A DNA stretch of 51,931 nt from Gemmatimonadota bacterium. GTDB taxonomy: Bacteria; Gemmatimonadota; Gemmatimonadetes; Gemmatimonadales; GWC2-71-9. Where the stretch lies: assembly GCA_011390645.1 (NCBI GenBank), contig JAABRY010000010.1, forward strand, positions 1-51,931. The letters run 5' to 3'. A program made the position numbers and the translations under genes. This document shows positions 1,534 to 21,109 of this stretch, piece by piece (position 1 is the stretch's first letter; every line of letters starts with the position of its first letter). The notes under the pieces were generated by a model. The model was not told the origin of the DNA. It worked only from the letters and a program-made list of their open reading frames with translations, and made no database searches.

Positions 1534-1656
1534 TGGTGAATGGTGAACGGGGGACTAGGTGAAACGTGAAAGGTGAAACGGGGACTCCGCAGTGGTCCAA
1601 GCCCAGCGCGAAGGACTGACCACCAGTTCTCCCTTTCACGTTTCACGTTTCACCCT
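1534..1656. repeat. Inverted heptamer-array element, copy A
   Basis: GGTGAAACGTGAAAGGTGAAACGGGG ... ~45 nt unique ... CCCTTTCACGTTTCACGTTTCACC, preceded by TGGTGAATGGTGAAC. Confidence 0.9.
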
Positions 1657-1730
1657 GGCCTGGGACCGATCTAGCCCTCACAACGTCCACCCCCTGCGAC
1701 CATCCCGGCACCCGCAGCATCTTTATCGGC

Positions 1731-2288
1731 ATGACAACGAAAGTGCTCACCATGGACGCCATGACCCTCCCGGACGCGGATGCGGTGATCGCCCGCGCCA
1801 AGCGGGGCGACCCGGTGGCGCTTGAGCAGGTCTACCGCGCCTACAGCACCCCGGCCTACAACCTGGCCCGGCGGATCTGCCGGACCACGGAAGACGCCGA
1901 GGACGTGCTGCAAGAGACCTTCTTCGAGGTGTGTCGTAGTATTCGCAACTACCGTGGCGATGGCTCGCTGTGGGGCTGGATCCGCACCATCACCTCGTCC
2001 AAGGCGCTGATGCGTCTGCGCCGGAACAAGTACCGCGACACCGATGAGCTGGTGGACGACATTGCCCCCGCGCGGTCGTCCTCGCCGGCGCTGAAGATGG
2101 ACCTGGAGAATGCCCTCGACCGCCTGACCGACACCGCCCGGGCGGTGGTCTGGCTCCACGATGTGGAGGGCTTTACCCACGAGGAGATCGCCACCCAGAT
2201 GGGCAAGACGACCTCCTTCAGCAAATCACAGCTCGCCCGCGCCCACGCCCGTTTGCGGGTCTGGCTAGGTGAGGAGTCCCGCTCATGA
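1731..2288 (+). CDS. ECF RNA polymerase sigma-70 factor
   Basis: Region 2 DAEDVLQETF; region 4 RAVVWLHDVEGFTHEEIATQMG...SKSQLARA. Confidence 0.95.
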   Translation: MTTKVLTMDAMTLPDADAVIARAKRGDPVALEQVYRAYSTPAYNLARRICRTTEDAEDVLQETFFEVCRSIRNYRGDGSLWGWIRTITSSKALMRLRRNKYRDTDELVDDIAPARSSSPALKMDLENALDRLTDTARAVVWLHDVEGFTHEEIATQMGKTTSFSKSQLARAHARLRVWLGEESRS

Positions 2289-2896
2289 CCACGCCTGTGC
2301 ACCTGACGATGGACCAGCTGCTTGCCCTTCGCGATGGCGACCGCAGCGAACCGGCCTTCGCGACCGCTGCCCGTCACCTGGACAGCTGCGCAACATGCCG
2401 CGCCGAACTCGAGGCACTGCATCAGCGCACGGCGCGACTGCGAGCCCTCGCGACGATGGCGCCCGCGGCGGATCAGTTCCCGGCGATCCGCACCCGGTTG
2501 CACTGGGAGCAGTCGCGTCGCCGTCGCATCATCTCCTTCACGGGGATGGCGGCGGCGGCCGCGCTGGTGATCGGCTTCGTCGGCAGCGACCTCGTCGCAC
2601 CGCCGACACTCGACGCTGAAGACCAGATCGCCGCCTCCATCTCCCGTTCGCAGGCCCTCGAGCAGACGCTGCACACCTGGGGCCCCGATGACCGGGTGAT
2701 GGACGGCCGGATGGCAATGGTCGTCATCGAACTCGAGGATCGAATTGCCGATGTGGATGCTCGACTGCAGGACGTCGCTCGGCTTCAACGCAAGGAACGG
2801 ATGCCGCACGAGGCGTCCCTCTGGCAGGAGCGGGTCGGCTTGATGAATGCCTTGGTGGATGTCCACCTCACCAAGGCCAACAACGTGGACCTCTGA
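2285..2896 (+). CDS. Membrane anti-sigma factor, zinc-binding (zf-HC2/ZAS-like)
   Basis: HLDSCATC (HxxxCxxC), one TM helix, ATGA overlap with the sigma gene. Confidence 0.8.
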   Translation: MTTPVHLTMDQLLALRDGDRSEPAFATAARHLDSCATCRAELEALHQRTARLRALATMAPAADQFPAIRTRLHWEQSRRRRIISFTGMAAAAALVIGFVGSDLVAPPTLDAEDQIAASISRSQALEQTLHTWGPDDRVMDGRMAMVVIELEDRIADVDARLQDVARLQRKERMPHEASLWQERVGLMNALVDVHLTKANNVDL

Positions 2897-2929
2897 GGTC
2901 CAGCGCACCAACACGAAGGAGTGGGACCG

Positions 2930-4039
2930 ATGGGACGCAACACGCTGATGATCATGATGGGCCTGACCATGGCAACGACCGCCCCACTTGCCGCACAGCG
3001 GGTGGAGGCTGACACCTCGATTTCGGTCTCGCGGAACAACGGGGTCACCGAGTGCAGGGTGCGGGTTGATGGGCGCACGCTCTCCGACGCGGACGCCAGG
3101 AAGCTTTGCGCCCGCGTGGAAGAAGGAACCGCGGCGATCCGCTTGAGCACCCAGATGTTGACTGACGAGATCAGACGCTTGAACACCGATTCGCTGGCGA
3201 TGCGTTTTCGAGGTCAGGCCGAGATGCTCGCCGACCAGCTCCGCGAAGTCGAAGGTCAGCGCAACTTCTTCGGCAACCTGATCCCGTCCATGGCAGCACG
3301 GCCGGTCATCGGTGTCACCGTCGACTTCACCCCGCGTGACACCGATCGCTACGGCGCCTACATCCAGGCCGTGACACCCGGTGGTCCTGCCGACAAGGCG
3401 GGGCTGCGCAGCGGCGACATCATCACCAAGGTCGGTGGCAAGGAGATCGGCACCTCCGAACGTCAGCGCGACGGGGTGAGTCAGTCCCTGGTCTCGCTCA
3501 AGCTGATCGAGGCGGTCGGTGCACTCGAAGCCGGCAAGGCGGTGCGATTCGACTACCGCCGCGACAATAACACCCGCAACGTGATGATCACGCCGATGGA
3601 GGATCGGACCATGATGGTGGCGCGGCGAATGGACGGGGTCCCCGTCGATCGCTTCTCGACCATCGTCGAACGGATGGCGGACGGCGTCCCGGTCGCACCG
3701 AACGCGCCGCGGCCGGGGGGTCGGATGACGATGACGACCCCTGGCCTCCAGTCCTTCACCTTCACGACCGGTGCACTCGCCCGCATCGAGATGGCGCCGA
3801 TGAACGAGAAGCTCGGCGCGTACTTCGGGGTGACCAACGGCGTCCTCGTGGTGAATGTCCCGGCCGAAGGCAACATGAACCTGCAGCCGGGTGATGTGAT
3901 CACCGCGGTGGACGGCCGGCGCATCGAGACGCCGAATGAATTTCTGCGGGTGCTGCGCACCTACGACGCAGATCGGAGCTTCACGCTGCAGGTCACGCGT
4001 CAGAAGCGTCAGGAAGTGATCACGACCAAGCTGCCCTGA
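2930..4039 (+). CDS. Secreted protein with two PDZ domains
   Basis: Signal peptide; GGPADKAGLRSGDIITKVGG and LQPGDVITAVDG PDZ motifs; AAGGAG RBS. Confidence 0.85.
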   Translation: MGRNTLMIMMGLTMATTAPLAAQRVEADTSISVSRNNGVTECRVRVDGRTLSDADARKLCARVEEGTAAIRLSTQMLTDEIRRLNTDSLAMRFRGQAEMLADQLREVEGQRNFFGNLIPSMAARPVIGVTVDFTPRDTDRYGAYIQAVTPGGPADKAGLRSGDIITKVGGKEIGTSERQRDGVSQSLVSLKLIEAVGALEAGKAVRFDYRRDNNTRNVMITPMEDRTMMVARRMDGVPVDRFSTIVERMADGVPVAPNAPRPGGRMTMTTPGLQSFTFTTGALARIEMAPMNEKLGAYFGVTNGVLVVNVPAEGNMNLQPGDVITAVDGRRIETPNEFLRVLRTYDADRSFTLQVTRQKRQEVITTKLP

Positions 4040-4061
4040 CCCCCCGCAGGGTGGTGCGGAG

Positions 4062-4096
4062 AGGCCCCCGACCCGGATAGGGCTGGGGGCCTTTTC
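4062..4096 (+). terminator. Intrinsic terminator
   Basis: AGGCCCCC...GGGGGCCT stem followed by TTTT, after the PDZ gene. Confidence 0.7.
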
Positions 4097-4145
4097 GTTA
4101 CAGGCCCGGGGTTACGCCAGAATAAGTGAGCAGTAGTTTCTTTTG

Positions 4146-4895
4146 ATGACCAAGTTCGAACGACGCCCCGAGGAACGGCCTGAGGAGCTCCTCGACGCAG
4201 CAGAGGCACGCTTTCTTCAGGAAGGCTACACAGCGGCAAGGGTGGAGCAGATCGCCCACGACGCAGGCGTGACGGTGGGCACCGTGTACCGGTACTTCCC
4301 CTCGAAGGACGCGCTCTTCCGCGAAGTGGTACTCCGGCACGCCGACGCGCAGTGGAGTCGCGGCCGCGAGATTGCCGACGCCTACGGTTCGCGTACCGCG
4401 CGCGAGATTGTCGAACTGCTGCTGCGACGCTGGGCCGATCGACTGCGCACTGGCGGAGAGGGTCGCGCATTGCTCCTGGTGGTGCGCGAAGCGGCAACTT
4501 TCCCCGAGGTCGTGCGCTCGTGGGTGGACGCGACGATCCAGAAGGGGTGCCTCGCGGTCGAGCGGGCGCTGCGCCACGGTATCGATCGTGGGGAGTTCCC
4601 GTTGCTCGATGTCGAGGCAACGGCGCGCGCGCTGGTCTCCACCGTTGTCAACCGCCACGTCTGGGACCACACCTTCCGACCTGAATTGCCTCCGCTCGCC
4701 GAGCGGGTGGACCCGACACAAGTCGCGATCGACCTGGTCGTCCGCGGGATCCCCCGGACGGAGCGCCGAACGGTCGTGGCGGCTCCCCCGCCCCCGATGC
4801 GCGAGCCGCATCAGATCGCCACCGAACGGGAAACCGCGGAGGATGCCAGCGGAGGGAAGTTGCGAATCGTCACGTTGAAGCCGCGACCCCGCTAG
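4146..4895 (+). CDS. TetR/AcrR family transcriptional regulator
   Basis: IAHDAGVTVGTVYRYFPSKDALF helix-turn-helix. Confidence 0.95.
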   Translation: MTKFERRPEERPEELLDAAEARFLQEGYTAARVEQIAHDAGVTVGTVYRYFPSKDALFREVVLRHADAQWSRGREIADAYGSRTAREIVELLLRRWADRLRTGGEGRALLLVVREAATFPEVVRSWVDATIQKGCLAVERALRHGIDRGEFPLLDVEATARALVSTVVNRHVWDHTFRPELPPLAERVDPTQVAIDLVVRGIPRTERRTVVAAPPPPMREPHQIATERETAEDASGGKLRIVTLKPRPR

Positions 4896-4904
4896 CTTCG
4901 CACG

Positions 4905-5300
4905 ATGGATCGTCGCCTGACCCTCATCACCCGCGCGCTGCGCCTCCACTGCCCGAATTGCGGCAACGGCGGGATCTTCAGGCGCTGGTTCGAAATGGCA
5001 CAGGACTGCCCCCGCTGCGGCTTCGCGCTCGCCTCGGGGAATCGGGTCGGGGCCAACCTCCTCAATCTGGTCGCAGCCGAGCTCTTGTTGATGGTCGCGC
5101 TCGCCACGATCATCATCCGTAGCTGGCCGAATCCGCCGTGGAAGTTCCTGGAATACGGCGCACCGCTGCTCATGCTCGTCGCCCCGCTCGTGCTCTTCCC
5201 TTTCTCGAAGTCGCTGTTCATCGCCTTCGATCTGGCGATGCACCCCGAGGGCCGCGCCGACCCGCGCGCCCACGGCACACCCGATCACCCGACCACCTAG
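4905..5300 (+). CDS. DUF983-like membrane protein (two CPxCG motifs)
   Basis: CPNCG...CPRCG followed by two TM helices. Confidence 0.75.
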   Translation: MDRRLTLITRALRLHCPNCGNGGIFRRWFEMAQDCPRCGFALASGNRVGANLLNLVAAELLLMVALATIIIRSWPNPPWKFLEYGAPLLMLVAPLVLFPFSKSLFIAFDLAMHPEGRADPRAHGTPDHPTT

Positions 5301-5303
5301 CCA

Positions 5304-6149
5304 GTGGCGCGATGGCCCACTGCCCCGTCGCGCCGGCGGCCGGGGTGGCGACGCTGGCTCGCGGGTGCAGCCTTCATCGTCGTGGTCGCAGTGCTTGCTT
5401 ATTGGTACCAACCACAACTACTACAAACACCCACCCCGGACATCGAAGAAAGCCAGACGACACCGCTCGCGCCGTCGCTGTATGGCTCGCCCGAGCGCGA
5501 GCTTGCGATACCAGGTGTCGGGATTGGCGTGCTGGTGGAGAATGAGGGCCCCTCGCCGCTGGCGGTCATCGTGGCAAGCTCGGCCGAATTGGTGGCCGAC
5601 CACGCCGGCGTTCAGGCGCTGCTCGAGCGGGAGGGGGTGGCCTCGCTTGCGCTGGTCGTCCCAACAGATTCTGCCGGAGCAGAGGCGCTGACCCGGTGGA
5701 TGGCACAGGCGGTAGCGGTGCGCCGCCTCCCCGTGCGGCTGGTCGTCCCGGGGAGCCTGCTCGATCATTGGCTTTCCCTCAGCCCCGACATCTCCATCCC
5801 GCTCCTGGTGCTCGGACCGGCGCCGGCCCGCCGCACGCTGCGCGAGACCTGGTTCCCCCGTCTGCGGTTCGCCTCCGACACTGTCGATGATCGACTGGCG
5901 GGCTGGGGGGGTGACGTGGCCGCGGTGGTCGCCCCGGACGACACCCTCGCCGCCAGACGGCTGGTCCGCGCTGCCGTGCGCGGGCGCGTCGTGATGCTTT
6001 CCGGAGAATCCGTCGACCCGCCCTCCCCTCACCCCGACCCCGGCGCCTGGCGTGAAGCGATCGCGATCCTGAGGGGGTATTGGGAGGGGCAGGTGGAGGT
6101 GCAGGTGGATGTGGGGGTGGGGGAGGAAGGGAACGAGGGTGAAAGGTGA
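5304..6149 (+). CDS. Hypothetical membrane-anchored protein
   Basis: N-terminal TM helix, operon-like spacing; the stop TGA lies inside a heptamer repeat. Confidence 0.6.
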   Translation: MARWPTAPSRRRPGWRRWLAGAAFIVVVAVLAYWYQPQLLQTPTPDIEESQTTPLAPSLYGSPERELAIPGVGIGVLVENEGPSPLAVIVASSAELVADHAGVQALLEREGVASLALVVPTDSAGAEALTRWMAQAVAVRRLPVRLVVPGSLLDHWLSLSPDISIPLLVLGPAPARRTLRETWFPRLRFASDTVDDRLAGWGGDVAAVVAPDDTLAARRLVRAAVRGRVVMLSGESVDPPSPHPDPGAWREAIAILRGYWEGQVEVQVDVGVGEEGNEGER

Positions 6150-6253
6150 AACGTGAAACGGGGTGCGATTTCGTCACCGCCTTGCAGGGCACACATCGCT
6201 CCGCGGCGGGCCTCCCTTTCACCATTCACGTTTCACCTTTCACGTTTCACCTT
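6137..6253. repeat. Inverted heptamer-array element, copy B
   Basis: GGGTGAAAGGTGAAACGTGAAACGGGG ... CCCTTTCACCATTCACGTTTCACCTTTCACGTTTCACC, between convergent genes. Confidence 0.9.
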
Positions 6254-6824
6254 CTGGCCCTTTCCGCCCCCACTTCTGCCAGCTCAACATCGCCACCGCA
6301 AACCCCGCCACGGCGGCGACCGTCACATCACTCAGGAAGTGCGCCTCGGCCTGGACGCGTGTGACCGCGTTGCCAGTCGCGAGCAGGAGCCAGATCGGCC
6401 AGGCGCGCGGAAAGAGGCGGCAGAGAACGAATGCCCCGGTGAATGCGACCAGCGCGTGGCTGCTCGGCAGGCCGAGTCCCTTGGTGGACCAGGGCTGGTC
6501 GGTGAAGGCGCGGAAGACGTATTCGCCATCGTTCGGGCCCGGGCGCTCGCGACGGAACAGCAACTTGAGCACTTCTGCCGCCAACCCGCCGAGTCCGGGG
6601 ACGAACCCGAGCACGAGGGCGTGTCGACGATCGCGCGTGTGCAGCCAGTAGGCGATCGCCATCGCGATCCACGTCGGGTAGTAGCCGACGATGCGGAAGA
6701 GGCGATCACGATCGTTGTCGTACACGCCCTCGCGGGCGAGCTCGGCAAACGCCCACGGATCGAGGAGGTGCGCGACGCCGATGGCGACCGCGCAGACGAT
6801 GGTGATGCGGAGGGTGGGGTGCAT
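6240..6824 (-). CDS. PAP2 family phosphatase
   Basis: KLLFRRERP, PSSH and TRVQAEAHFLSDV match the PAP2 C1-C3 motifs. Start is 6824 or further upstream. Confidence 0.9.
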   Translation of the reverse strand: MHPTLRITIVCAVAIGVAHLLDPWAFAELAREGVYDNDRDRLFRIVGYYPTWIAMAIAYWLHTRDRRHALVLGFVPGLGGLAAEVLKLLFRRERPGPNDGEYVFRAFTDQPWSTKGLGLPSSHALVAFTGAFVLCRLFPRAWPIWLLLATGNAVTRVQAEAHFLSDVTVAAVAGFAVAMLSWQKWGRKGPEGET

Positions 6825-6855
6825 CCCGGAAAAGGTAGCGGGGTATCCTTCTGCC

Positions 6856-7803
6856 ATGCGATCCCTTCTTCCTGTCATCCTCCTCCTCGCGCCGGCCCAC
6901 CTCAGCGCGCAGGACCTGCCCCCGTATGTCCCGGTCAACCCGGTGCTTGCCGCGCGGAGCCCACTCTACGCGCAACCGATCATCCCTCGGGGGGGGGGAT
7001 GGCAGGTGCGCACCGTGCTCGACTACACCAACGCAATCGAGAGCGAGCGGAGTCGAGATCGACGCGATTATCTGCTCGATGCCGAATTGCTGCAGGTGGA
7101 CCTCTGGGTCACGCGCAACCTTTCGTCCAACGCCTTCGTGCTCGCCAATGCGTCGCTGCGCGGCGGCTACGATGGCGCGTTCGACGGTTTCCTCAATTGG
7201 TATCACGACCTCATCGGCCTCCCGGTGCCGGCACGCAATCGCCGCCCCGAAGACACCTTTGCGTGGGAGATTCCGCTGCCGGATGGGACCACCACGCGCG
7301 AGCGTCCCGGCACCTTCATCGGCGACGTGCGCCTGGGGGGGGGATACCGTGCGGGCCCCGTCCAGTTGCTCGGCACCGTCACCCTCCCCACCACCAGCGC
7401 GGGCGAGGGATGGGGGCGCGATCGCGTGGGCGGCTCACTCCACGCCACCGCCAACCTGCTCCGCACCGATCGTGTGCTGCTTGAGGCCGGGCTCGCCGCA
7501 GGGTATACCCCGGCGAGCGGCGCCCTCGCAGCCTACCAGAAGGAAGTCTTCCTCGGTGGCATGGGCGCACTGCGTTGGCGTTTCTGGGGACAGCAGGCGC
7601 TCTTCGCGACGATCTGGACGCAGTCACCGAACTGGCAGGGCACCGGCTTCGACGCGATGGACGGCGCGGAGGTGACGATCGACTTCGGTGGCTTGGTGAA
7701 GCTCGGCAAGAACTGGCCCGAGCTGCAACTCGGCGTCACCGAAGATCTCTACCCGCGCGGGCCGGGGGTGGATGTGGGGGCAAAGATCGGGGTGAGGTGG
7801 TGA
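6856..7803 (+). CDS. DUF3187-like outer-membrane beta-barrel protein
   Basis: Signal peptide; GAFDGFLNWYHDLIGLP motif; amphipathic strands; C-terminal W. Confidence 0.7.
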   Translation: MRSLLPVILLLAPAHLSAQDLPPYVPVNPVLAARSPLYAQPIIPRGGGWQVRTVLDYTNAIESERSRDRRDYLLDAELLQVDLWVTRNLSSNAFVLANASLRGGYDGAFDGFLNWYHDLIGLPVPARNRRPEDTFAWEIPLPDGTTTRERPGTFIGDVRLGGGYRAGPVQLLGTVTLPTTSAGEGWGRDRVGGSLHATANLLRTDRVLLEAGLAAGYTPASGALAAYQKEVFLGGMGALRWRFWGQQALFATIWTQSPNWQGTGFDAMDGAEVTIDFGGLVKLGKNWPELQLGVTEDLYPRGPGVDVGAKIGVRW

Positions 7804-7946
7804 CGGCGAACGGCGAACGGCGAACGGTGAACGGTGAACGGTGAACAGACGACAGTGGTGAAAGGTGAAAGGTGAAAGGGGTACCATAGCGACCCGTTTC
7901 ACCTTTCACGTTTTACCGGTTGCTGTTCACCGTTCACCGTTCCCCG
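7803..7946. repeat. Nested inverted heptamer-array element, copy C
   Basis: (CGGYGAA)6 outer arm, (GGTGAAA)3 inner arm, spacer, TTTCACC/TTTCACG/TTTTACC, then (GTTCACC)2. Confidence 0.9.
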
Positions 7947-7947
7947 C

Positions 7948-8475
7948 CTACCGCTCTCCCATCTCCGGTGCTCCCAGCGGCGTGCGACCGAAGGCGCGCT
8001 GCAGACGCGGATGATTGCGCCAGATCCACGCCCCCATCACGAGAGCGGCGAGGGTGTTGGCCGCGAGGACGCTCCCCAGCGGGAAGAGCCCGCGCGTGGT
8101 CTCGGAGGCGATCGCGAGGAGACCGAAGAAGAAGAGCTCGAAGACGATGAACAGTTGCAGCACGGCATACCGTGCCACGCTGCTCGTCTCGGCTCGGGTC
8201 ACCAGCGCAGTGAGCAGCAGCCCGAAGGCCACGAACGACAGCAGGTGGACGCCCGAATACACCAGGACGGCGGTGGTGTCGACCGCGTCCATGCTTGGGG
8301 CGGCGCGACGCATGACGAGCACTTCACCGAGGACGCTCGGAGTCTGCAGCGCCAACCCTCTGGTCAGATCCACGCCGAGATAGAAGAGGGCGACGACTGC
8401 GGCCCCGAGTACGCCAGCGATCAGACCTTCTCGGGTGGAAGGCGTCGAAGAGGTGTGCAGGCTCTGGACGTTCAT
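7948..8475 (-). CDS. Hypothetical 4-TM membrane protein
   Basis: Four hydrophobic helices; ATG 8475 with GGAGG RBS. Confidence 0.75.
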   Translation of the reverse strand: MNVQSLHTSSTPSTREGLIAGVLGAAVVALFYLGVDLTRGLALQTPSVLGEVLVMRRAAPSMDAVDTTAVLVYSGVHLLSFVAFGLLLTALVTRAETSSVARYAVLQLFIVFELFFFGLLAIASETTRGLFPLGSVLAANTLAALVMGAWIWRNHPRLQRAFGRTPLGAPEMGER

Positions 8476-8544
8476 GGGGCGCCTCCGTCGTGTGCGGGTG
8501 ATCCGTTTCGATCGGTGCGGCGGCCAGGGACGCAAGCCGGAATC

Positions 8545-8796
8545 TCAGGGGATCCGGTCGGGAGCTCCCTCGCCAAAGCAGAACTGCTCGAGATTTTTCA
8601 GCAGGAAGGCCCTCGCCTGGGGTTGGTGCGGGACGAGGGCGTAGTGATTGATGAGCTGCTGCTGGGTCTGGAGCCAGTCCGCCCAGCAGGTCTTGCAGAT
8701 CGAATCGTAGATGCGCTGACCGAGCTCGGTCGGAAACGGCTTGAAGGCCTGACGATCTCCGGTCTGGCCACAGCGAGTGCAGGTGATGGTGTTCAT
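8545..8796 (-). CDS. yggX: YggX-like Fe(II)-trafficking / oxidative damage protection protein
   Basis: PFPTELGQRIYDSICKTCWADW...LINHY...ARAFL...EQFCFG resembles YggX. Confidence 0.85.
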   Translation of the reverse strand: MNTITCTRCGQTGDRQAFKPFPTELGQRIYDSICKTCWADWLQTQQQLINHYALVPHQPQARAFLLKNLEQFCFGEGAPDRIP

Positions 8797-8817
8797 TCCG
8801 ACCAATTTAATCGGCGA

Positions 8818-9087
8818 TCAGTCCCCCCGCTTGAGTGCCTTCACTCCACTGGCCGTGCCGAGACCGGCGGCGGCCCCCGCCACCAAGGCCGTTGTGGTCG
8901 TGATCAGCGGCAAGAGCCAGGCGATCGGCGACGCAATCATCAGAACCCCGAGCCCGGCGATCCATGGCGCCAACGGATGGCGGACGGCATCCACGAACCG
9001 CAGGCGCTGGCGGACGAATTCGCGGGCAATTCCGAAGGCGAAGATGCCTGCCGCGGCGGTCACCACGAAATAGAGCAAGTCAAACAC
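8818..9087 (-). CDS. Small hypothetical membrane protein
   Basis: Three hydrophobic segments; AGGAGG RBS before GTG. Confidence 0.75.
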   Translation of the reverse strand: MFDLLYFVVTAAAGIFAFGIAREFVRQRLRFVDAVRHPLAPWIAGLGVLMIASPIAWLLPLITTTTALVAGAAAGLGTASGVKALKRGD

Positions 9088-9236
9088 GGCGTCCTCCTGG
9101 ACGGGGTACGTGTTTCAGTACGAAACTCCAGAACGAAAGATTCACCCGAAGGGCGAGGGAGGGCAGCATCCTCGCCCACACCCCTCCGGGCAGCTAGAAT
9201 CCGAGTCGTTGGCCTTCCCCCCACTCAGGAGACCTC

Positions 9237-11340: not shown

Positions 11341-11348
11341 GGGGGGCG

Positions 11349-11462
11349 GGGTGAGAGGGAAAAGGGGACGCGGCCTGCGGCCGCGCTTGGTGAAAGGTGA
11401 AAGGGGGTAAGCCGAGGGCTCCGTTTCACCTTTCACGTTTCACTGCTGTTCCCCCTCACCCC
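11349..11462. repeat. Inverted heptamer-array element, copy D
   Basis: GGTGAAAGGTGAAAGGGGG-spacer-CCGTTTCACCTTTCACGTTTCAC (11389-11443) with degenerate outer arms. Confidence 0.85.
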
Positions 11463-11495
11463 GGCGACTGACGTCGCCGGCTGGGATTCCGCTTC

Positions 11496-12491: not shown

Positions 12492-12498
12492 GCAGGAA

Positions 12499-12550
12499 GG
12501 GTAAAGGGGTGAGGGGGCAATGGGGAACTGGGGTGAAAGGTGAAAGGGGG
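12499..12550. repeat. Half heptamer element, copy E (left arm only)
   Basis: GGGTGAAAGGTGAAAGGGGG plus degenerate G-rich units; no TTTCAC arm nearby. Confidence 0.65.
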
Positions 12551-12628
12551 CGCAGGCCGCCGGCCCTCCCGCAACAACGCTTCTGGTCGTATTCTCACCC
12601 AACCCATCCCTCATGCCACGAGTGTCCT

Positions 12629-13842: not shown

Positions 13843-13987
13843 ACGACGCGTGCCTGTCTGCACTCCTGCATGAGCGGCGGACCTGATGGCATGCGCGAGG
13901 CCGCGGCGATGACGGGATCCCGCGGCGATTGACGCAACGTGTGGTATGCGGGACTTCCCCGCATCCCACCCGAACCCGGAGGTTCTC

Positions 13988-14476
13988 ATGCGCAGAGCGA
14001 TGCGGCGCACGATGTTCACCTTCGTCCTGCTCGCGCTCGCGTGTGGTGGCGACAGCAATGGCACCGGCCCAGGACCCACCCCACCCCCGCCCCCGCCTCC
14101 TCCCCCGCCTCCGACTGACAGCCCGATGACAGCCAAGCTCAACGGCCAGCCATTCGTGGCGGAGTTCGCCACGCTCGGTCGGTCCGCAGGATGGGTATAC
14201 ATCAATGGAGCGGGTCTGCCCAGCAACGCGATCGGTTTCGCCTTCGCCGACCAGGGCACCGGCACCTACACGATCGCCCCCGGCAACCTTGTTTCCTCGG
14301 GGGTCACGGTTGGCTCCACGGCCTGGGTGGCTGGGCAGGCGCAAGGCAGCGGCACCATCGTGGTGACGACCTTCACCGCCACCCGCATCGCCGGGACGTT
14401 CACCATCAATCTGGTGCCCTCCCTTGGCGGACCGTCGATGGCGGTGACGGAAGGAGTGTTCGACTTCACGTTCTGA
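13988..14476 (+). CDS. Lipoprotein with poly-Pro linker and beta-rich domain
   Basis: LALAC lipobox, 11-Pro tract, GTIVVTTF...IAGTF...VTEGVF. Confidence 0.75.
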   Translation: MRRAMRRTMFTFVLLALACGGDSNGTGPGPTPPPPPPPPPPPTDSPMTAKLNGQPFVAEFATLGRSAGWVYINGAGLPSNAIGFAFADQGTGTYTIAPGNLVSSGVTVGSTAWVAGQAQGSGTIVVTTFTATRIAGTFTINLVPSLGGPSMAVTEGVFDFTF

Positions 14477-14563
14477 CGGTGAGGCCGCGGCCCCCACATG
14501 GCAACGATCGGCACCTGTGCGGAGCAGCGGGGTACATCCTCGCACACCCGTTCAGGACGACCG

Positions 14564-15196
14564 ATGATCGATCACGACAGCAAGCCCCTCTGCGCGTCAT
14601 CCTGGCGAAGGCCTCGCGCGCGCCTGCTGCTCCTGCCGTCCCTGATCCTCGTGATGGGTCTCGACGGGCGATCCGATGCCATGCACCCGGAGACACCGAT
14701 GCCGAGAACGCTCTTCGCCTTCGACGACACCGACGAAGCGACGTGGGACGTGGTCAATGACGGCGTGATGGGTGGCCGTTCCGCCGGCTTCGTGACGGTG
14801 GCCGACGGCGCCCTTCGATTCACGGGAACCCTCGTGACCCAGGGCGGCGGCTTCACATCCGTGCGGGCAGCACGAGCCGTGGACCTGACGGGCCAGGTGG
14901 GGCTCGAACTCCGGGTCATCGGCAATGGGCGCCAGTTCGAGGTGGAAGTGAACGACGGCCTGGGCAACTTCGGCCGCGCCGTCTCGCGCCGGGCACCGTT
15001 CCCCACCTCGGAGGAGTGGACCGTCGTGCGCGTACCGTTCAGCGCCCTCCGGAGCAGCATCTTCGGACAGGCAGTGAACGCTCCGCCGATCAATCTGGCG
15101 CGAATCCGTGGCGTGGGGCTCTACATCCTGGATGGGCAGGACGGGCCGTTTCACCTGGAAGTGGACTACATCCGGGCCTACGGTCCCGAGGAGTGA
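14564..15196 (+). CDS. CIA30 family protein
   Basis: WDVVNDGVMGGRS, GGFTSVR, GPFHLEVDYI. Start may be 14699. Confidence 0.88.
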   Translation: MIDHDSKPLCASSWRRPRARLLLLPSLILVMGLDGRSDAMHPETPMPRTLFAFDDTDEATWDVVNDGVMGGRSAGFVTVADGALRFTGTLVTQGGGFTSVRAARAVDLTGQVGLELRVIGNGRQFEVEVNDGLGNFGRAVSRRAPFPTSEEWTVVRVPFSALRSSIFGQAVNAPPINLARIRGVGLYILDGQDGPFHLEVDYIRAYGPEE

Positions 15197-15274
15197 GTCA
15201 GCGGCAGCGACACCATTCCGCGGCATGCATCACCAGAACTCCCCGCACCGCCCTCTCCTGAACGGTGGCATGCC

Positions 15275-17692
15275 CTACGGTTGGAGCTCCACCGTGGTGC
15301 TCGTGCGACCGGGTCGCACATGGAGGATCACGGTGACCACCCCGGTGCCGGGGTCGCGGTACCAGCGGTCGCCGTTGGCCGCCTCGGCCTCCGCGAGCGA
15401 GGCCGCAGCAGGGAGTGGACTGTTGTTCTGATAGTCGCGCAGCACCTTGCCCGGCATGCCGTCATACGGGAAGTCCACCCGCACGCGGTCACCCTCCGTC
15501 ACGCGCGACAGCAGCAGGCGAGGCCGCTTCGGCGCGGCACCGTGCCAGTTGACCAGATAACGGCTGCCGGGCAACACCGACATGAACGCCCGCGTCGGGG
15601 CGTTCGGGACTCCAACGAGCGTGACGGCTGCCTCGCCATCGCGCGCGAGACCGAAGGGAGCGATCACCTCGTTGGCATCGCTGCGGACCTGAAGTTGCAC
15701 GTAGCGGTGCGGACAGCTCCAACTGTTCCACGCGGCGCGCCAGGTGCAGGAGGGAGTCACCAGCAGTGGTGAGTTGGCCACCACCGTGTGGCCGGGCACG
15801 CCGGTCACGCCGCCGTCCACGTCGCGGAAGAGGGCCGCCTTGTCACCGTCCTTGTCGGCCTTCGGATTCTCAAGCCACACCGCGTTGGCGTTCACCAGCG
15901 TGAGCGACGAGCCGAAGTTGTCGGTGCTGATGGCAAAACCATTGTTCCGGTTGTACCCAAGGGCCGATGCCGCACGCTGCCCGTTGGGGACGAAGTTCGC
16001 GAACGTCACCCGCGTGGCGCCGACAGTGCCGTCATAGAATTCGTAACCGCGGATCGGAAACGAGGCGTTGGGAACCGCCGTGATATTCGCGGTCTCGCCA
16101 ACGATCAGTGCGTCCTCGACGATCGTCTCGTTGGAGGCGAAGGTCGCGCCGATCATGTTGTCGGCGAGCACCGCGCGACGCAACCGATGCCCGGTGCCGC
16201 GCAACCAGACGGCGCGGCCCCGGTGCTTCCACCCCACGAAGTCCTCGAAGACCGCCGGCACCATCGCCCCACCGCTCACCGCGCCCACACGCGGATTGTA
16301 GCTCGTGGTCTCCGTGGTGCCATCAGGGCGTGGCCCTCCATCAACCTCCAGCCCGTTGCGGACATTGGAGTGCGCGACGTTGCCGCGAAAACTGCCGAGC
16401 GGGGTCAGACGGGGAGCGTCCGGCTCCCCGGTGGAGAGTCCGGTGGGTGCGGCAGGGAGCGCATACCAGAAGCCGAAGCCGGAAGACCCCGCGGCGTGAT
16501 TGTGATGCACCGCGTTGTCGGGGTTGGTGATCCAGAAGGTGGCCGGGGTGACATCACTGGGCAGCACCCGCACGGCCACTGCGGGAACGCGTGACACCAG
16601 CCCCAGGTTACCGGCCAGCGTGTTGCCCGATTCCGCGCCATCCTCCAGGAAGTAGCCATGCCCGGAGTGGTCGTAGCAGACGTTGTCTTCAGCGACGGCG
16701 TTGTCGGTCCCGTGGATGGTGATGCATCGGAGGTTCGTACGCCAGATCGCGTTCTGTCGCACGTATTGCCCCGTTACCGACCCTGCCATGTGCCAATGCA
16801 GCGGGTACCGCCCCACGTTGCCGGCCTGCCCCATCCGGTACAACTCCACGCCCTCGACGCGCATCGTGGCACCCGCCAGTGAGATCACGTGGCCACCAAA
16901 GCCACCGACACTCGCGTCATCGCCGCGGATCACGACGTTGCGGGTGAGCAGGCCCACTTCCGCGCGCTCGTCCACCGATTTCCCGGCCACCTGCTGGGTG
17001 ACGCCCCAGTGCCGGTACACGAGCGGGGCATCAAGCAGCAATTGGGTCCCGCTGCCTCCCGTGACCACGCGCTCCTCGGCGTGGTTCGGATCGAAGTCGG
17101 TGGACGCGATCACGATGCGATCACCGACGCGCCAGTCGTGCGCGCGCTCGAGTTGCAGCGACGTCGCGCCGGCCTCCGCCGTGTTCGTCAACCGGGTCCA
17201 TGCGAGTCGTCGCGCACCATGGACGTCGAGCGTACCGCCGGGGAGGACGGCAAGCACCTTCGTTCCGACGATCGGGGCGCCACGTCCACTGCTGAGGGTG
17301 ATGGTGAAGTGCCGCTGGTGCAGCGCTGACTCTGTCCCGACGCCGAAGTGTCCGGATACCAGAATCTCCTGCGCGTGCAACTCCACGTCCGCCGTGTCGC
17401 TCACCAGCAAGGTGCCCTCGACGCGCAGTTGGGCCAGCGCGGGGGGTGAAACATTCAGCACAACGGTGTCACCGGCGGGGATCACGACATCCTGACCGGC
17501 GACCGGGATCGGAGCGGGAGCCCAGGTGGTGGCATCCGACCACAGGGGGAGTTCCTGAACCGGCGGGGTCGGCGGGGCCGGTGGGGGCGCCTCGGGCAAC
17601 ACCGGCTCGACATGGTCGTCGGGAGCGCAGGCCATGACCAGCAGGCCACCGGCGAGGCAGAGCGGGAGGAGCGCACGCATGGGTGACCTCAT
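15275..17692 (-). CDS. G8-domain, beta-helix (TMEM2/CEMIP/fibrocystin-like) lipoprotein
   Basis: Lipobox LVMAC; WSDATTW...PVAGQDVVI G8 start; AEVGLLTRNV, GRYPLHWH, RCITIHGT, GHGYFLEDG, FWITNPDN. Confidence 0.85.
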   Translation of the reverse strand: MRSPMRALLPLCLAGGLLVMACAPDDHVEPVLPEAPPPAPPTPPVQELPLWSDATTWAPAPIPVAGQDVVIPAGDTVVLNVSPPALAQLRVEGTLLVSDTADVELHAQEILVSGHFGVGTESALHQRHFTITLSSGRGAPIVGTKVLAVLPGGTLDVHGARRLAWTRLTNTAEAGATSLQLERAHDWRVGDRIVIASTDFDPNHAEERVVTGGSGTQLLLDAPLVYRHWGVTQQVAGKSVDERAEVGLLTRNVVIRGDDASVGGFGGHVISLAGATMRVEGVELYRMGQAGNVGRYPLHWHMAGSVTGQYVRQNAIWRTNLRCITIHGTDNAVAEDNVCYDHSGHGYFLEDGAESGNTLAGNLGLVSRVPAVAVRVLPSDVTPATFWITNPDNAVHHNHAAGSSGFGFWYALPAAPTGLSTGEPDAPRLTPLGSFRGNVAHSNVRNGLEVDGGPRPDGTTETTSYNPRVGAVSGGAMVPAVFEDFVGWKHRGRAVWLRGTGHRLRRAVLADNMIGATFASNETIVEDALIVGETANITAVPNASFPIRGYEFYDGTVGATRVTFANFVPNGQRAASALGYNRNNGFAISTDNFGSSLTLVNANAVWLENPKADKDGDKAALFRDVDGGVTGVPGHTVVANSPLLVTPSCTWRAAWNSWSCPHRYVQLQVRSDANEVIAPFGLARDGEAAVTLVGVPNAPTRAFMSVLPGSRYLVNWHGAAPKRPRLLLSRVTEGDRVRVDFPYDGMPGKVLRDYQNNSPLPAAASLAEAEAANGDRWYRDPGTGVVTVILHVRPGRTSTTVELQP

Positions 17693-17733
17693 GGAGGGGG
17701 GCAAAGCACCAAGTATCGGAGACGGTGGTGGGG

Positions 17734-17800
17734 AGGTGAAAGGTGAAAGGTGAAACGGGGGTCGGTCGTGCGACCCCTTTCACCTTTTACGTTTTACCTT
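17734..17800. repeat. Inverted heptamer-array element, copy F
   Basis: (GGTGAAA)3 CGGGGGTCG-GTCGTG-CGACCCC TTTCACC TTTTACG TTTTACC. Confidence 0.9.
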
Positions 17801-17860
17801 CCTACCATCACCCTCGGCCGACCCCGTCCTGCTTTCCCCCTCGTCGCTGCCGGAGACTCG

Positions 17861-18736
17861 ATGCTTGATTCCCTGCCCTGGCTCACTCGCGAGGAAGCCC
17901 TCTCGCTCGCAGCGGCGGTGCTGCCAAAATTGGCCGCGGCGATCCTCGTCTTTCTCGCCTTTCTCATCCTGCTTCGCGTGGTGCAACCGGCACTGCGTGC
18001 CGTGCTGCGTCGCGCCAACTTCGCGCCCGCGCTGATCCACCTCCTGGTGGATGGTGTGGTGCGTGGGGCTGTCCTGATCATTGGTCTCGTCATGGCGGCG
18101 AGCCAACTGGGGATCAACATCGCCGCCGCACTCGCGGGTCTCGGCGTGCTGGGCATCGCGGTCGGCTTCGCCGCGCAGGAGACGATCGCCAACATGATCG
18201 CCGGTTTCCTGATCTTCTGGGATCGGCCCTTCAAGGTGGGCGACTGGATCACTGCGCAAGATCGCTACGGGGAAGTCCGGGACATCACCCTCCGCACGAC
18301 GCGCATTCGCACACCCGACAACACGTACGTCGTGATCCCGAACAAGCAGGTCATCGGGGAGATGCTGGTCAATCACTCGATGTACGGCGAGACCCGCGTC
18401 AACGTACCCGTCGGCATCGCCTACAAGGAATCGATCGCCGAGGCGCGACGGGTGATCCTCGAGGCGGTCGACGCCCTTGACGGCGTGCTGTCCGACCCAC
18501 CACCGACTGTCGTGGCCGACAAGCTGGGCGATTCCAGCGTTGACCTGCTCGTGCGGGTCTGGGTAGCCGATGGATCGAATCTCAAGCCGGTGCACTTCCG
18601 CGTGGTCGAGGCGTGCAAGGTCGCGCTCGACAAGGCCGGCATCGAGATCCCCTTCCCGCATCTGCAGCTGTTCGTCGACGACGTGAAGGACCGCGTGTGG
18701 GACGGCCTGCGGGGCAGCAGCTCAGGGAGTACCTGA
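17861..18736 (+). CDS. mscS: Small-conductance mechanosensitive channel
   Basis: GIAVGFAAQETIANMIAG, RPFKVGDWI, IEIPFP. Confidence 0.92.
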   Translation: MLDSLPWLTREEALSLAAAVLPKLAAAILVFLAFLILLRVVQPALRAVLRRANFAPALIHLLVDGVVRGAVLIIGLVMAASQLGINIAAALAGLGVLGIAVGFAAQETIANMIAGFLIFWDRPFKVGDWITAQDRYGEVRDITLRTTRIRTPDNTYVVIPNKQVIGEMLVNHSMYGETRVNVPVGIAYKESIAEARRVILEAVDALDGVLSDPPPTVVADKLGDSSVDLLVRVWVADGSNLKPVHFRVVEACKVALDKAGIEIPFPHLQLFVDDVKDRVWDGLRGSSSGST

Positions 18737-20101
18737 CGCACCACGCGGCGCCTTGGAGGGCGATGGTTGCGCGGTGTCGAGCAGGTCCTCCTCATCGCTC
18801 ACCACGCGATCCACCTCGATTTGTGCGTCAAGCGAGCGATCGACGGCCACGTCGCTCGCGCGCGGCTCGGGGGTGGGCGCCGGTGCGGACGGGGTGGCTT
18901 CCTCCATCCGGAGGAGGTATTCCGGCGAGGGGAGGGTGAGGCCGGCATCCTCGATCGCGGTCTTGACGAGGCGGATCGCCTCGCCTCGGGCACGCATCCA
19001 GTCCACCTGGCTCTGGTCGATCCAGCCTGACACCTCGATCGTCACCGTGGACGCACCCAACTCCATGACGATGGCCTGCGGGGCCGGATCATCGAGGATG
19101 CCCTCCATCGCCACCATCGCCTGCACGGCGACGCGGCGGGCCTGCACGAGATCGTCCGTGGCCCCGAGCCCCAGGGTGAAGGCCAGGCGCCGGAGCGGGT
19201 TCCGGGTGAAGTTCACCATCGGGCTGCGGAAGATCAGCGCGTTGGGCAGCCGGACGTGATTGCCATCGACGCTCATGAGGATCGTCTCACGGGGCGTCAG
19301 GCGCACGACCTTCCCTTCGAACTGGTCCACGCGAATGAAATCATTCTTCGCGAATGGCTGCCGAATGGCGAGGATGGTGCCGGCGAGATAATTCTCGACG
19401 ATGTCCTTGAAGGCAAAGCCGATGGCGAGGCCCGCGAGGCCCGCCGTGCCGACGAGCGCACCCACAAGCGCCGTGGCATCCAGCAGGTCAAGCGCGAGGA
19501 TGATCCCGATGATCACGACCCCAGACTGCACGAACCGCCGGATGAGTGCCTGCAGGAACGGATTCCGGGTGGTCAGAAATGCCGGCCCGCCCCAGCGAGC
19601 CATCATGGCACCGAGCCACAAGGCCAGGACCACGATGAGCAGCGCCACGGCGAGCAGGGGCAGCTTGGCGACGACGCCATACCCGGCCTCTCGCAAGCGG
19701 GTCCAGGTGGGCTGCAGTTGCTCCTCGAGCGACGTCGACTCGGTGATGCGGTTGTCGACGAAGACCACGCCCTCCATCTCGGAGGCGAGCTGCACGGCGC
19801 GTTCACGCGTGTCACCGGTGAGCACGGTGCCAATCAGACGCACGACGCCGGCATCCACCGTCACATCGACGCGGTTCAATCCAGGGACGCGATCGAAGAT
19901 TGCCTGCAGCGCGTTCCGGATCGCTTCATCCTGCGCGGCCCGTTGATCAGTGACCGGCTCGGGTGGCAGGGTGTCGGACGTGAGCGATTCGGTCACCACT
20001 GCGCTGGTGGCGGTACTCTCCACCTGTGCGCGCGCGGGTGCCGCGACCACACACAGGGCGAGGACGACCACCGCGAAGCGCCATTGCTGGAGTGGCATCA
20101 T
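18722..20101 (-). CDS. MscS-family channel with N-terminal BON domain
   Basis: Signal peptide; VDVTVDAGVVRLIG...GVVFVDNRI (BON); GLAIGFAFKDIVENYLAG. Confidence 0.88.
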   Translation of the reverse strand: MMPLQQWRFAVVVLALCVVAAPARAQVESTATSAVVTESLTSDTLPPEPVTDQRAAQDEAIRNALQAIFDRVPGLNRVDVTVDAGVVRLIGTVLTGDTRERAVQLASEMEGVVFVDNRITESTSLEEQLQPTWTRLREAGYGVVAKLPLLAVALLIVVLALWLGAMMARWGGPAFLTTRNPFLQALIRRFVQSGVVIIGIILALDLLDATALVGALVGTAGLAGLAIGFAFKDIVENYLAGTILAIRQPFAKNDFIRVDQFEGKVVRLTPRETILMSVDGNHVRLPNALIFRSPMVNFTRNPLRRLAFTLGLGATDDLVQARRVAVQAMVAMEGILDDPAPQAIVMELGASTVTIEVSGWIDQSQVDWMRARGEAIRLVKTAIEDAGLTLPSPEYLLRMEEATPSAPAPTPEPRASDVAVDRSLDAQIEVDRVVSDEEDLLDTAQPSPSKAPRGASGTP

Positions 20102-20115
20102 GACGAATGGTACCA

Positions 20116-20189
20116 AGGTGAAAGGTGAAAGGTGAAAGGGAACCGCGTGGTATGGCCCCCTTTCACGTTTCACGTTTTACCTTTCATCC
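20116..20189. repeat. Inverted heptamer-array element, copy G
   Basis: (GGTGAAA)3 GGG-spacer-CCCCC TTTCACG TTTCACG TTTTACC TTTCATC. Confidence 0.9.
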
Positions 20190-20232
20190 TTTCCCCCCAC
20201 CGCCGCCAGCCCCTTTCCCGGAGACTTGCCCC

Positions 20233-21009
20233 ATGCACCTCCATCCGTCCCGACCGGCCGCCTGTCTCTTGATCGCCCTGGCAGCCGCCTGTGCGGAGGA
20301 GGCGCCGCCGCCCCAGGAGGCGCGCACCGTCGAGGGCGAGTGCGCCGAGGTCTATGGCGGCCAGGTCTGCACCTGGGCCACGATCGACGGGAGCGACAAG
20401 GTGACGGAGTTCGGGGCGATCATCCCGCTGGCCACCATCGAGGGAGCCCCCGCGGAGATGGAGATGGCGTGGCCGCCCGCCGCCCAGGCGAGTCTCGCCC
20501 TCCCGGAGGCCGCCCGTACCGCCACGGGGATGCAGCACTTCACCGTCAACTGGGAAGCTGGGGGTCACCCCCCCGGGCCGTACCTGACGCCCCACTTCGA
20601 CTTCCACTTCTACTCGATCCCGGCGACCGAGCGGATGGCGATCGATTGCAGCGACACCACCAAGCCGACCATGCTGCCTGTCGGATACGCCATGGAGGAC
20701 CCGGAGGTGCCGGGACTCGGCGTACTGGTGGGAACCTGCGTGCCGCAAATGGGGATGCACTCGCTTCCGGCCGGCGAGATGGGAAGCACCGATATCTTCA
20801 GTGCCACGATGGTGATGGGGTACTATCGGGGCAAGCCGATCTTCGTCGAACCGATGATCGCGCGCGCCAAGCTGCTGGAACGAGCCTCGTTCGAGTTGCC
20901 GATGCCAGTGGTCGAGGGGGCCCCGGCTGATGCGCCCCGTCCGCGCGGCGTGGTCGCGACGTACGACCCCGAGGCGAATGCGTACCGGCTCGCCTTCGCG
21001 GTGCCGTGA
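20233..21009 (+). CDS. DUF5602/TTHB210-like lipoprotein
   Basis: Lipobox AAAC; NWEAGGHPP, PHFDFHFY, QMGMH, FVEPMI. Confidence 0.75.
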   Translation: MHLHPSRPAACLLIALAAACAEEAPPPQEARTVEGECAEVYGGQVCTWATIDGSDKVTEFGAIIPLATIEGAPAEMEMAWPPAAQASLALPEAARTATGMQHFTVNWEAGGHPPGPYLTPHFDFHFYSIPATERMAIDCSDTTKPTMLPVGYAMEDPEVPGLGVLVGTCVPQMGMHSLPAGEMGSTDIFSATMVMGYYRGKPIFVEPMIARAKLLERASFELPMPVVEGAPADAPRPRGVVATYDPEANAYRLAFAVP

Positions 21010-21048
21010 CCGGAGGGTGTCGAGGGTCCGCGTCCTGACAACTCGGCA

Positions 21049-21109
21049 GTGAAAGGTGAAAGGGCGTTCCCTCTCGAGGCCCCCTTTCACCTTTCACCTT
21101 TTACCTTTC
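21049..21109. repeat. Inverted heptamer-array element, copy H
   Basis: GTGAAAGGTGAAAGGG-spacer-CCCCC TTTCACC TTTCACC TTTTACC. Confidence 0.9.

What the first reader, a model, noticed from the sequence alone, without database searches (positions are those of the whole stretch)
1534..21109. Dispersed family of inverted heptamer-array elements with unique spacers
Seen: seven intergenic elements (1534-1656, 6137-6253, 7803-7946, 11349-11462, 17734-17800, 20116-20189, 21049-21109) share the layout (SGTGAAA)2-3 + G-run + unique 10-50 nt core + C-run + (TTTYACS)3-5. There is also a half copy at 12499-12550. They sit between convergent, divergent and tandem genes. Arm unit number varies between copies and the cores are unrelated. 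Known: REP/REPIN elements and cyanobacterial STRR heptamer repeats exist, but I do not recognise this combination. Inference: a REP-like or non-autonomous mobile family, or binding sites for a trans-acting factor encoded elsewhere.
Basis: partly seen in the sequence, partly recalled or inferred. Interest (0 to 1): 0.8.

Follow-up and report, generated by a model that had tools for sequence, protein, structure and literature searches.

The report
Gene-less copies of heptamer-armed gene cassette
These mirror-image runs of a 7-base repeat between genes are real, come and go between related bacteria, and carry the same arms as a small uncharacterised 'four-helix-bundle' gene in this genome, so they are likely gene-less mobile copies of that cassette, which offers a testable cause for a long-unexplained class of bacterial repeats.

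Summary
Confirmed. The seven elements and the half copy are real; the genome holds 101 (SGTRAAA)n-core-(TTTYACS)n pairs and none in the reverse order. Cores are not all unique: they fall into about 21- and 57-nt classes, and one window core has a 90% identical copy on another contig. Orthologous sites in congeners are empty or hold other heptamer families, and these elements nest inside other families. The same arms bracket one of the genome's two four-helix-bundle genes (PF05635, Avd-like). In relatives 57 of 68 such genes have matched inverted arms (control 2 of 366). Ten related genomes without the gene showed 0 arrays in 680 kb; ten gene-rich ones showed 62 in 672 kb. Best reading: REPIN-like, non-autonomous copies of this cassette, with the protein as likely trans factor. 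No catalytic activity or binding is shown, and protein-to-unit matching failed outside this order (1 of 10 genomes). It is not a REP/REPIN member: the genome's RAYT has other repeats. The repeat kind is published (Xanthomonas GGGAATC pairs); I found no paper linking it to this gene. This scan has noted the gene-plus-arms link before on other DNA.

The parts
1535..1548 (.). Element 1: outer remnant arm (GGTGAAT/GGTGAAC units)
1558..1654 (.). Element 1: left arm 1558-1578, 55-nt core 1579-1633, right arm 1634-1654; between divergent ferritin-like and ECF sigma genes. The same site holds a GGTGAAA element with another core in G013 and other units in G010 and G018
6138..6251 (.). Element 2: left arm 6138-6158, 58-nt core 6159-6216 (member of a 17-copy core family; 90% identical copy on contig C200), right arm 6217-6251. 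The PAP2 ORF on the minus strand ends at a TGA inside the right arm
7803..7946 (.). Element 3, nested: outer GGCGAAC/GGTGAAC arms (7803-7846, 7925-7946) around an inner GGTGAAA element 7857-7917 with a 19-nt core; fills the gap stop-to-stop between convergent genes. Empty in G013 (15 nt) and G012 (27 nt); AGTCGTT-armed element in G018
11349..11462 (.). Element 4: inner GGTGAAA element 11389-11444 with a 21-nt core inside degenerate outer arms, 3' of the ketoacyl-ACP synthase III gene. The matching spacer is empty in G010 and G012 and holds other elements in G013, G014 and G018
12499..12550 (.). Half copy: left arm only (12532-12545) with degenerate outer units; no right arm within 200 nt; not seen at this site in five congeners
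17735..17798 (.). Element 5: 3+3 units, 22-nt core, between divergent G8-domain and MscS genes
20117..20189 (.). Element 6: 3+3 units plus one degenerate unit, 23-nt core, divergent context
21048..21109 (.). Element 7: 2+3 units, 23-nt core, between co-oriented genes
36128..36156 (+). Lone left arm of the GGTGAAC family (4 units)
49395..49463 (+). Lone left arm of the GGATGTT family (about 10 units), the unit that brackets the genome's second four-helix-bundle gene

Best explanation
The elements are inverted heptamer-array units that are gained and lost at intergenic sites, and they are likely gene-less, non-autonomous copies of a small cassette in which the same arms enclose a four-helix-bundle gene (PF05635), whose protein is the likely trans-acting factor for their spread or upkeep. 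Shown: arm-core-arm occurs as one copied unit at unrelated sites, more often near its sister copies; it favours gaps after stop codons; it sits inside other heptamer families and never the reverse; the gene-bearing form lies in either orientation at one locus. Inferred: the inner family is the younger one, and re-insertion into old arms explains why both arms change unit together and why the cassette flips. Inferred and untested: the Avd-like pentamer binds the repeat arms (DNA or RNA hairpin), and host repair or recombination enzymes, or an unfound partner, do the cutting and joining.
For: Same arms and same G-run/C-run boundary around the PF05635 gene on contig C221; GGATGTT arms around the second gene on C202. 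57 of 68 homologous genes have matched inverted 7-8-nt arms, against 2 of 366 control intervals. 0 period-7/8 arrays in 680 kb from 10 family genomes lacking the gene; 62 arrays in 672 kb from 10 gene-rich genomes, all 10 positive, with no such gene inside the sampled stretches. The three congeners with most GGTGAAA elements (G000, G013, G015) are the three whose tRNA-Ala cassette has these arms. Gene-less GGTGAAT elements occur in 3 of 52 genomes, exactly the three with GGTGAAT-armed cassettes. Empty and filled sites: of 57 collinear gaps against G013, 10 hold this family only there, 3 only here, 1 in both with unrelated cores; window sites. Nested inside other families 7 times, reverse 0 of 101. 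Nearby cores are more alike (p=5e-4 short, 0.035 long). The cassette lies in both orientations between the same two neighbours. The protein's fold matches Xcc0516 (TM 0.90) and, weakly, Avd (TM 0.76, E 0.14).
Against: No catalytic activity is known for this family and no transposase, RT or nuclease partner was found: PF00078, PF13366 and PF04480 are absent from an 86% complete assembly. No target duplication was seen. Unit matching is not general: of 10 genomes from other phyla with a GGTGAAA element, only 1 has a four-helix-bundle gene with these arms, and the TGTGACC prediction failed (0 of 52). Cores hold no coding remnant of the gene and match the cassette leader profile only weakly (z about 2). 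A GxxExxY gene also sits in 9-nt inverted arms in G013, so small genes may be passengers. The genomes compared are kin, were chosen as extremes, and only about 2% of each was sampled.
Confidence: 0.55

Rival explanations
1. The arms are the mobile or recombinogenic part, moved by a host enzyme or another small gene (for example a GxxExxY nuclease), and the four-helix-bundle gene is only a frequent passenger.
For: A GxxExxY gene in 9-nt inverted arms occupies, in G013, the site that holds a gene-less element here. Arms also enclose CGTC-type palindromes, a tRNA gene and a terminator-like hairpin. Unit matching fails in 9 of 10 distant genomes.
Against: Arrays were absent from all 10 sampled genomes lacking the four-helix-bundle gene. 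No GxxExxY or DUF559 gene was found in this genome, which has 366 array clusters.
Confidence: 0.22
2. The elements act mainly as RNA: long hairpins at transcript 3' ends, or RNase III-type sites like the rRNA intervening sequences, kept by host selection, possibly bound by the four-helix-bundle protein.
For: All seven fold into long stems on both strands (-25 to -54 kcal/mol). Convergent gaps are enriched: 35 of 88 against 188 of 1150. Between co-oriented genes the GTAAAA/TTTTAC variant lies where it gives a G-U pair in the sense RNA in 12 of 16 cases; sense-strand C-to-T mutation would give the same pattern.
Against: Left and right arm variants agree no better than shuffled pairs (0.533 against 0.534). 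10 of 88 copies, and 3 of 7 in the window, lie between divergent genes. Orthologous sites are often empty. A hairpin alone does not explain the one-way polarity. No terminator-like site or Rfam family at the elements.
Confidence: 0.15
3. They are ordinary REPINs moved by the genome's RAYT-type tyrosine transposase.
For: Same logic as REPINs: inverted ends, variable spacer of preferred length, extragenic (PMC3116915, passages). One Y1_Tnp gene is present.
Against: That gene is flanked by its own palindromes (11 and 15 copies) and by no heptamer arm. The arms are tandem arrays, not REP hairpins, and lack GTAG/CGTC tags.
Confidence: 0.04
4. They are simple-sequence repeats made by slippage, paired by chance.
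For: Unit number varies between arms and copies, as slippage would give; lone arms are common.
Against: 0 of 366 clusters in reverse order. Exact tandem arrays number 260 at period 7 against at most 15 at periods 5, 6 and 8-11. Cores are shared between unrelated sites.
Confidence: 0.04

Closest known systems
GGGAATC heptamer repeats of Xanthomonas (Rehm et al. 2015, PMC4692102; section 10, passages and supplement rows read)
   Same: Intergenic heptamer arrays, often as convergent inverted pairs (70 cases in Xcc), closer to the upstream gene, at different genes in different species. Supplement file 2, row 15 places one such array between bccP and XCC0516, the four-helix-bundle protein of PDB 2GSC.
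   Different: Different unit, with no G-quadruplex-type G tract in GGTGAAA. The paper's main text does not mention XCC0516 and says the repeats are generally not associated with mobile elements.
REPINs and their RAYT transposases (Bertels and Rainey 2011, PMC3116915; passages read)
   Same: Non-autonomous inverted doublet with a variable spacer of preferred length, extragenic, tied to a low-copy gene that carries the same ends.
   Different: Arms are tandem heptamers rather than REP palindromes; the linked gene is a four-helix bundle with no HUH motif; excision intermediates are not shown here.
ORF-bearing 23S rRNA intervening sequence (Coxiella S23p IVS, PMC4990558; passages read)
   Same: Same protein family; terminal inverted repeats; tandem heptamers of variable number upstream of the ORF; cut out by RNase III.
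   Different: Here the cassette lies outside rRNA genes, and most copies have no gene. RNase III cleavage was not tested.
TAACTGA repeats of Beggiatoaceae (MacGregor 2015, PMC4679880; abstract and passages read) and cyanobacterial STRR repeats (recalled)
   Same: Dispersed intergenic heptamer arrays of unknown origin and patchy distribution; stop codons in all three frames.
   Different: Described almost wholly as direct repeats upstream of start codons; no four-helix-bundle link in the text searched.
Avd of diversity-generating retroelements (PDB 4DWL; PMC10053308 passages read)
   Same: Related fold.
   Different: No reverse transcriptase found in this assembly. One weak PF05635 match beside a DGR-like repeat pair had no heptamer arms by eye (L273).

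Membership tests
REP/REPIN | Two inverted ends with a variable spacer of preferred length, extragenic | tested here: met
   39 of 101 cores are 19-23 nt and 28 of 101 are 53-61 nt; 1 of 101 lies inside a called gene
REP/REPIN | Each end is a short palindrome with a GTAG or CGTC tag | tested here: not met
   Ends are tandem SGTRAAA arrays; separate CGTC-type repeats occur and insert into some cores
REP/REPIN | Same repeats flank a RAYT gene | tested here: not met
   The single Y1_Tnp gene is flanked by other palindromes
REP/REPIN | Excision seen in population reads | tested here: inconclusive
   Only short contigs were available; they break at the repeats
Xanthomonas-type inverted heptamer repeats | Dispersed intergenic heptamer arrays in convergent inverted pairs | tested here: met
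Xanthomonas-type inverted heptamer repeats | GGGAATC-type unit able to form a G-quadruplex | tested here: not met
   Unit is SGTRAAA, without a G3 tract
MITE | Terminal inverted repeats and presence/absence at orthologous sites | tested here: met
MITE | Target-site duplication and a cognate IS transposase sharing the ends | tested here: inconclusive
   No duplication visible, but relatives are about 75% identical; the gene sharing the ends is not a transposase; IS families were not surveyed
ORF-bearing rRNA intervening sequence | PF05635 gene between inverted repeats | tested here: met
   Cassettes on C221 and C202; the window elements themselves carry no gene
ORF-bearing rRNA intervening sequence | Located inside an rRNA gene | tested here: not met
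   Both cassettes and all window elements lie between protein or tRNA genes
ORF-bearing rRNA intervening sequence | Excised from RNA by RNase III | not testable with these tools
   No RNA holder listed
Intrinsic terminator | Short GC stem, small loop, U tract | tested here: not met
   No terminator-like site at any element in 1400-21300

The most novel reading that the evidence does not exclude
PF05635 four-helix-bundle proteins are the drivers of a transposase-free mobile system: the pentamer recognises inverted heptamer arms and makes arm-core-arm units copy into gaps after stop codons and into older arms. They would play for heptamer repeats the part RAYTs play for REPINs, and would explain the Xanthomonas GGGAATC arrays, the heptamers of rRNA intervening sequences and probably the cyanobacterial STRR repeats.
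Probability: 0.3. Interest if true: 0.87.

Novelty: new variant of a known kind. Interest (0 to 1): 0.66.

Why it matters
Intergenic heptamer arrays are common in many bacterial phyla and have no accepted origin; PF05635 is a widespread family with solved structures and no function. Here about a quarter of intergenic gaps of 40 nt or more carry an array (296 of 1150), and the arrays were missing where the gene was missing. That turns two open questions into one direct experiment: does the protein bind and move its arms? If it does, this is a kind of mobile DNA that needs no recognisable transposase and reshapes gene ends.

Tried and rejected
Rfam: no family in the window. Promoter and terminator scans: nothing at the elements. 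RAYT as mover: rejected. RT, GxxExxY and DUF559 genes in the own assembly: not found (86% complete). Strain-level gain or loss from public runs: contigs break at the repeats; apparent indels in the element-3 core fit other copies laid on it, so nothing was concluded. No RNA holder listed. Concerted evolution of the two arms within an element: not found. Cores as remnants of the coding region: none. Cores as remnants of the cassette leader: TGCG near an end in 14 of 35 long cores and 1 of 46 cores of 19-30 nt, but the leader profile scored only z about 2, so this is left open. A universal length ruler: rejected, since cores outside Gemmatimonadota spread over 7-34 nt. Arms as three-frame stop signals: fits GGTGAAA but not GGATGTT or GCGAGAA units, rejected as general. 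Cores as CRISPR-like spacers: too short to test; only one window core has a long match elsewhere, in another element. Viral contigs: 0 matches to the arm pattern. TGTGACC prediction: failed. The tree is the quick tree; kin share labels, so it does not show co-evolution. A paired comparison of congeners with and without the gene was not completed.
Full report
OBSERVATION. The seven elements and the half copy are present as described. In the whole assembly (G000, 2.93 Mb, 67% GC, 86% complete) a strict pattern finds 101 elements of the form (SGTRAAA)n-core-(TTTYACS)n, none in the reversed sequence and none in right-then-left order. At least six further heptamer families have the same layout; of 366 array clusters none is in reverse order. 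Exact tandem arrays of three or more copies number 260 at period 7 and at most 15 at periods 5, 6 and 8-11. The host is a Gemmatimonadales bacterium by similarity: 38 of 70 flanks from Gemmatimonadota-labelled records match the assembly at about 77%, against 4 of 90 flanks from other taxa.

ANATOMY. Arms have three units in 62 of 101 left and 61 of 101 right arms. Cores fall into two classes: 39 of 101 are 19-23 nt and 28 of 101 are 53-61 nt. Unit variants in the two arms of one element agree no better than shuffled pairs (145 of 272 = 0.533, against 0.534 +/- 0.025), so arms are not copied from each other and perfect pairing is not selected. Of 35 long cores, 17 form one diverged family; the window's element 2 has a sister on contig C200 with 46 of 51 identical core bases and unrelated flanks. 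With a simple codon-based gene caller, 35 of 88 elements lie between convergent genes (background 188 of 1150) and 10 of 88 between divergent genes (223 of 1150).

GAIN, LOSS AND NESTING. The window's first 12.5 kb is syntenic in five congeners. The element-3 gap is 15 nt in G013, 27 nt in G012 and holds an AGTCGTT-armed element in G018. The spacer 3' of the ketoacyl synthase gene (element 4) is empty in G010 and G012 and holds other elements in G013, G014 and G018. The element-1 site holds the same arms with another core in G013 and other units in G010 and G018. The element-2 site could be placed only in G010. Against 783 kb of G013 (about a quarter of it; 75% identity), 57 collinear gaps gave 43 with neither, 10 with this family only in G013, 3 only in G000 and 1 in both; several of the ten hold another heptamer family in G000. 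GGTGAAA elements lie inside other families 7 times and the reverse was seen in 0 of 101; I infer that the inner one is younger. Elements are clumped among the 60 contigs of 15 kb or more (p about 1e-5). Cores within 6 kb of each other are more alike than cores on different contigs (13 against 1863 pairs, p=5e-4; 8 against 581, p=0.035); two identical pairs weigh on the first figure, and one of them follows paralogous genes. No target duplication was visible.

THE LINKED GENE. The only GGTGAAA pair with a 200-1200-nt interior encloses a 118-aa four-helix-bundle gene (PF05635, TIGR02436) on contig C221. The genome's other member, on C202, lies in GGATGTT arms. The family was found in 101 of 121 genomes of the same family. 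Of 68 distinct loci fetched (the best-scoring ones; four duplicates dropped), 57 have matched inverted 7- or 8-nt arms, against 2 of 366 control intervals from the same loci. The distance from arm to start codon peaks near 70-74 nt, with a TGCG/GCGT word at about -69 and -49. Twelve orthologues of the C221 gene mostly carry GTGA-type units; 11 sit beside tRNA-Ala, 5 in one orientation and 6 in the other, and with the same second neighbour G015 and G010 are opposite to G013, G014, G094 and G177. The model (pLDDT 96.9) matches Xcc0516 (TM 0.90) and weakly Avd (TM 0.76, E 0.14). Eight positions are invariant in 49 sequences, five of them polar (Q39, R42, E53, S73, E76).

TESTS OF DEPENDENCE. GGTGAAA elements occur in 8 of 52 congeners, and the three with most matches are the three whose cassette has these arms. 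Predicted and found: gene-less GGTGAAT elements only in G014, G094 and G177 (3 of 52), which are one clade. Predicted and not found: TGTGACC elements in G010 (0 of 52). In the first four contig starts of 10 family genomes without the gene (of 20 such, chosen for completeness; 8 genera) there were 0 period-7/8 arrays in 680 kb; in 10 genomes with five or more copies there were 62 in 672 kb, in all 10 genomes, with no such gene in the stretches. At a looser threshold the period-7 counts were 3 and 40; period-10 controls were 2 and 5. These are extremes, kin and small samples. Against strict specificity: the same arms occur in other phyla (at least 92 stretches, scan truncated; 45 of 80 loci outside Gemmatimonadota), yet of 10 such genomes only 1 has a four-helix-bundle gene with these arms, although most of their genes carry inverted arms of other units by eye. 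A GxxExxY gene in 9-nt arms fills, in G013, a site that holds a gene-less element here, so passengers exist.

MECHANISM. I commit to: gene-less, non-autonomous copies of the four-helix-bundle cassette, spreading as arm-core-arm units into gaps after stop codons and into older arms, with the protein as the needed trans factor (0.55). Shown: polarity, whole-unit copies, presence and absence, nesting, both orientations, co-occurrence with the gene. Inferred: order of nesting, re-insertion as the cause of flips and unit changes. Untested: binding, chemistry, any RNA role. Rivals: gene as passenger (0.22), RNA hairpins under host selection (0.15), RAYT-driven REPIN (0.04), slippage alone (0.04).

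KNOWN SYSTEMS. It works like a REPIN (PMC3116915, passages) but fails membership: no REP palindrome, and the RAYT has other repeats. The repeat kind matches the Xanthomonas GGGAATC inverted pairs (PMC4692102: section 10, passages, supplement rows); that supplement lists an array directly before XCC0516, which the main text does not mention. The Coxiella rRNA intervening sequence has the same gene family with heptamers (PMC4990558, passages). Passages of PMC3733652, PMC6006769, PMC5581495, PMC4679880 and PMC10053308 did not describe the link. Nine full-text searches showed no paper that ties PF05635 to dispersed heptamer elements; subscription journals and bioRxiv supplements were not searchable. 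Earlier notes of this scan report the gene-plus-arms design in at least 64 genomes and read this genome's copies as 3'-end hairpins; they are unchecked and not used as support.

VERDICT. Real, mobile on an evolutionary scale, a new variant of a known but unexplained kind; interest 0.66.

Noticed in passing
G000:C221:1089-1570 (L001) and L056-L067: The four-helix-bundle cassette beside tRNA-Ala lies in opposite orientations in congeners, between the same neighbours; it could be invertible between its arms.
   Followed up: partly
L014-L085, upstream of PF05635 genes: Leader of nearly fixed length (about 70-74 nt) with a TGCG/GCGT word at about -69 and -49 and an A..TT box at about -11 to -6; suggests a leaderless transcript with a tandem binding site 20 bp apart.
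   Followed up: partly
G000:C202:5210-5723, L020, L028, L039, L043-L047: The gap between the V-type pyrophosphatase-like gene and the ychF-like GTPase gene (names recalled from the sequences) repeatedly holds a four-helix-bundle cassette with different arm units.
   Followed up: partly
L119:10598-11242 (G013): GxxExxY gene (TIGR04256) enclosed by inverted 9-nt repeat arms at a site that holds a gene-less heptamer element in G000.
   Followed up: partly
G000 contigs C80, C219, C222, C254, C273: A GGCCGG..CCGGCC terminator-like hairpin occurs as the core of CGTAGGT-armed elements; all five strict matches lie inside such arms.
   Followed up: partly
G000:C135:569-788, C280:4030-4226 and others: CGTC-type palindromic repeats (89 motif hits) insert into the cores of heptamer elements.
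   Followed up: no
G000:C30:15309-15653: Single Y1_Tnp (RAYT-like) gene flanked by its own palindromes, with 11 and 15 copies genome-wide.
   Followed up: partly
window:6240-6242 and genome-wide: 29 of 123 called gene ends facing an element stop at a TGA inside the arm (crude gene calls), so insertion may rewrite C-termini.
   Followed up: no
G000:C260:1199-1865; C271 about 5700-6070; C198 element at 34665: Heptamer arms also stand on both sides of a toxin-antitoxin-like gene pair, a tmRNA-like gene and a tRNA gene (identified by eye).
   Followed up: no
L253, L255, L268, L272: In other phyla the four-helix-bundle gene is flanked on one or both sides by complete gene-less elements, as RAYT genes are by REPINs.
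   Followed up: no
window:21110-51931: No paired GGTGAAA element in the last 30 kb against seven in the first 21 kb; clumping is significant genome-wide.
   Followed up: partly
window:983-1495 and 49394-49951: Two ferritin-like (Dps-type) genes in one window.
   Followed up: no
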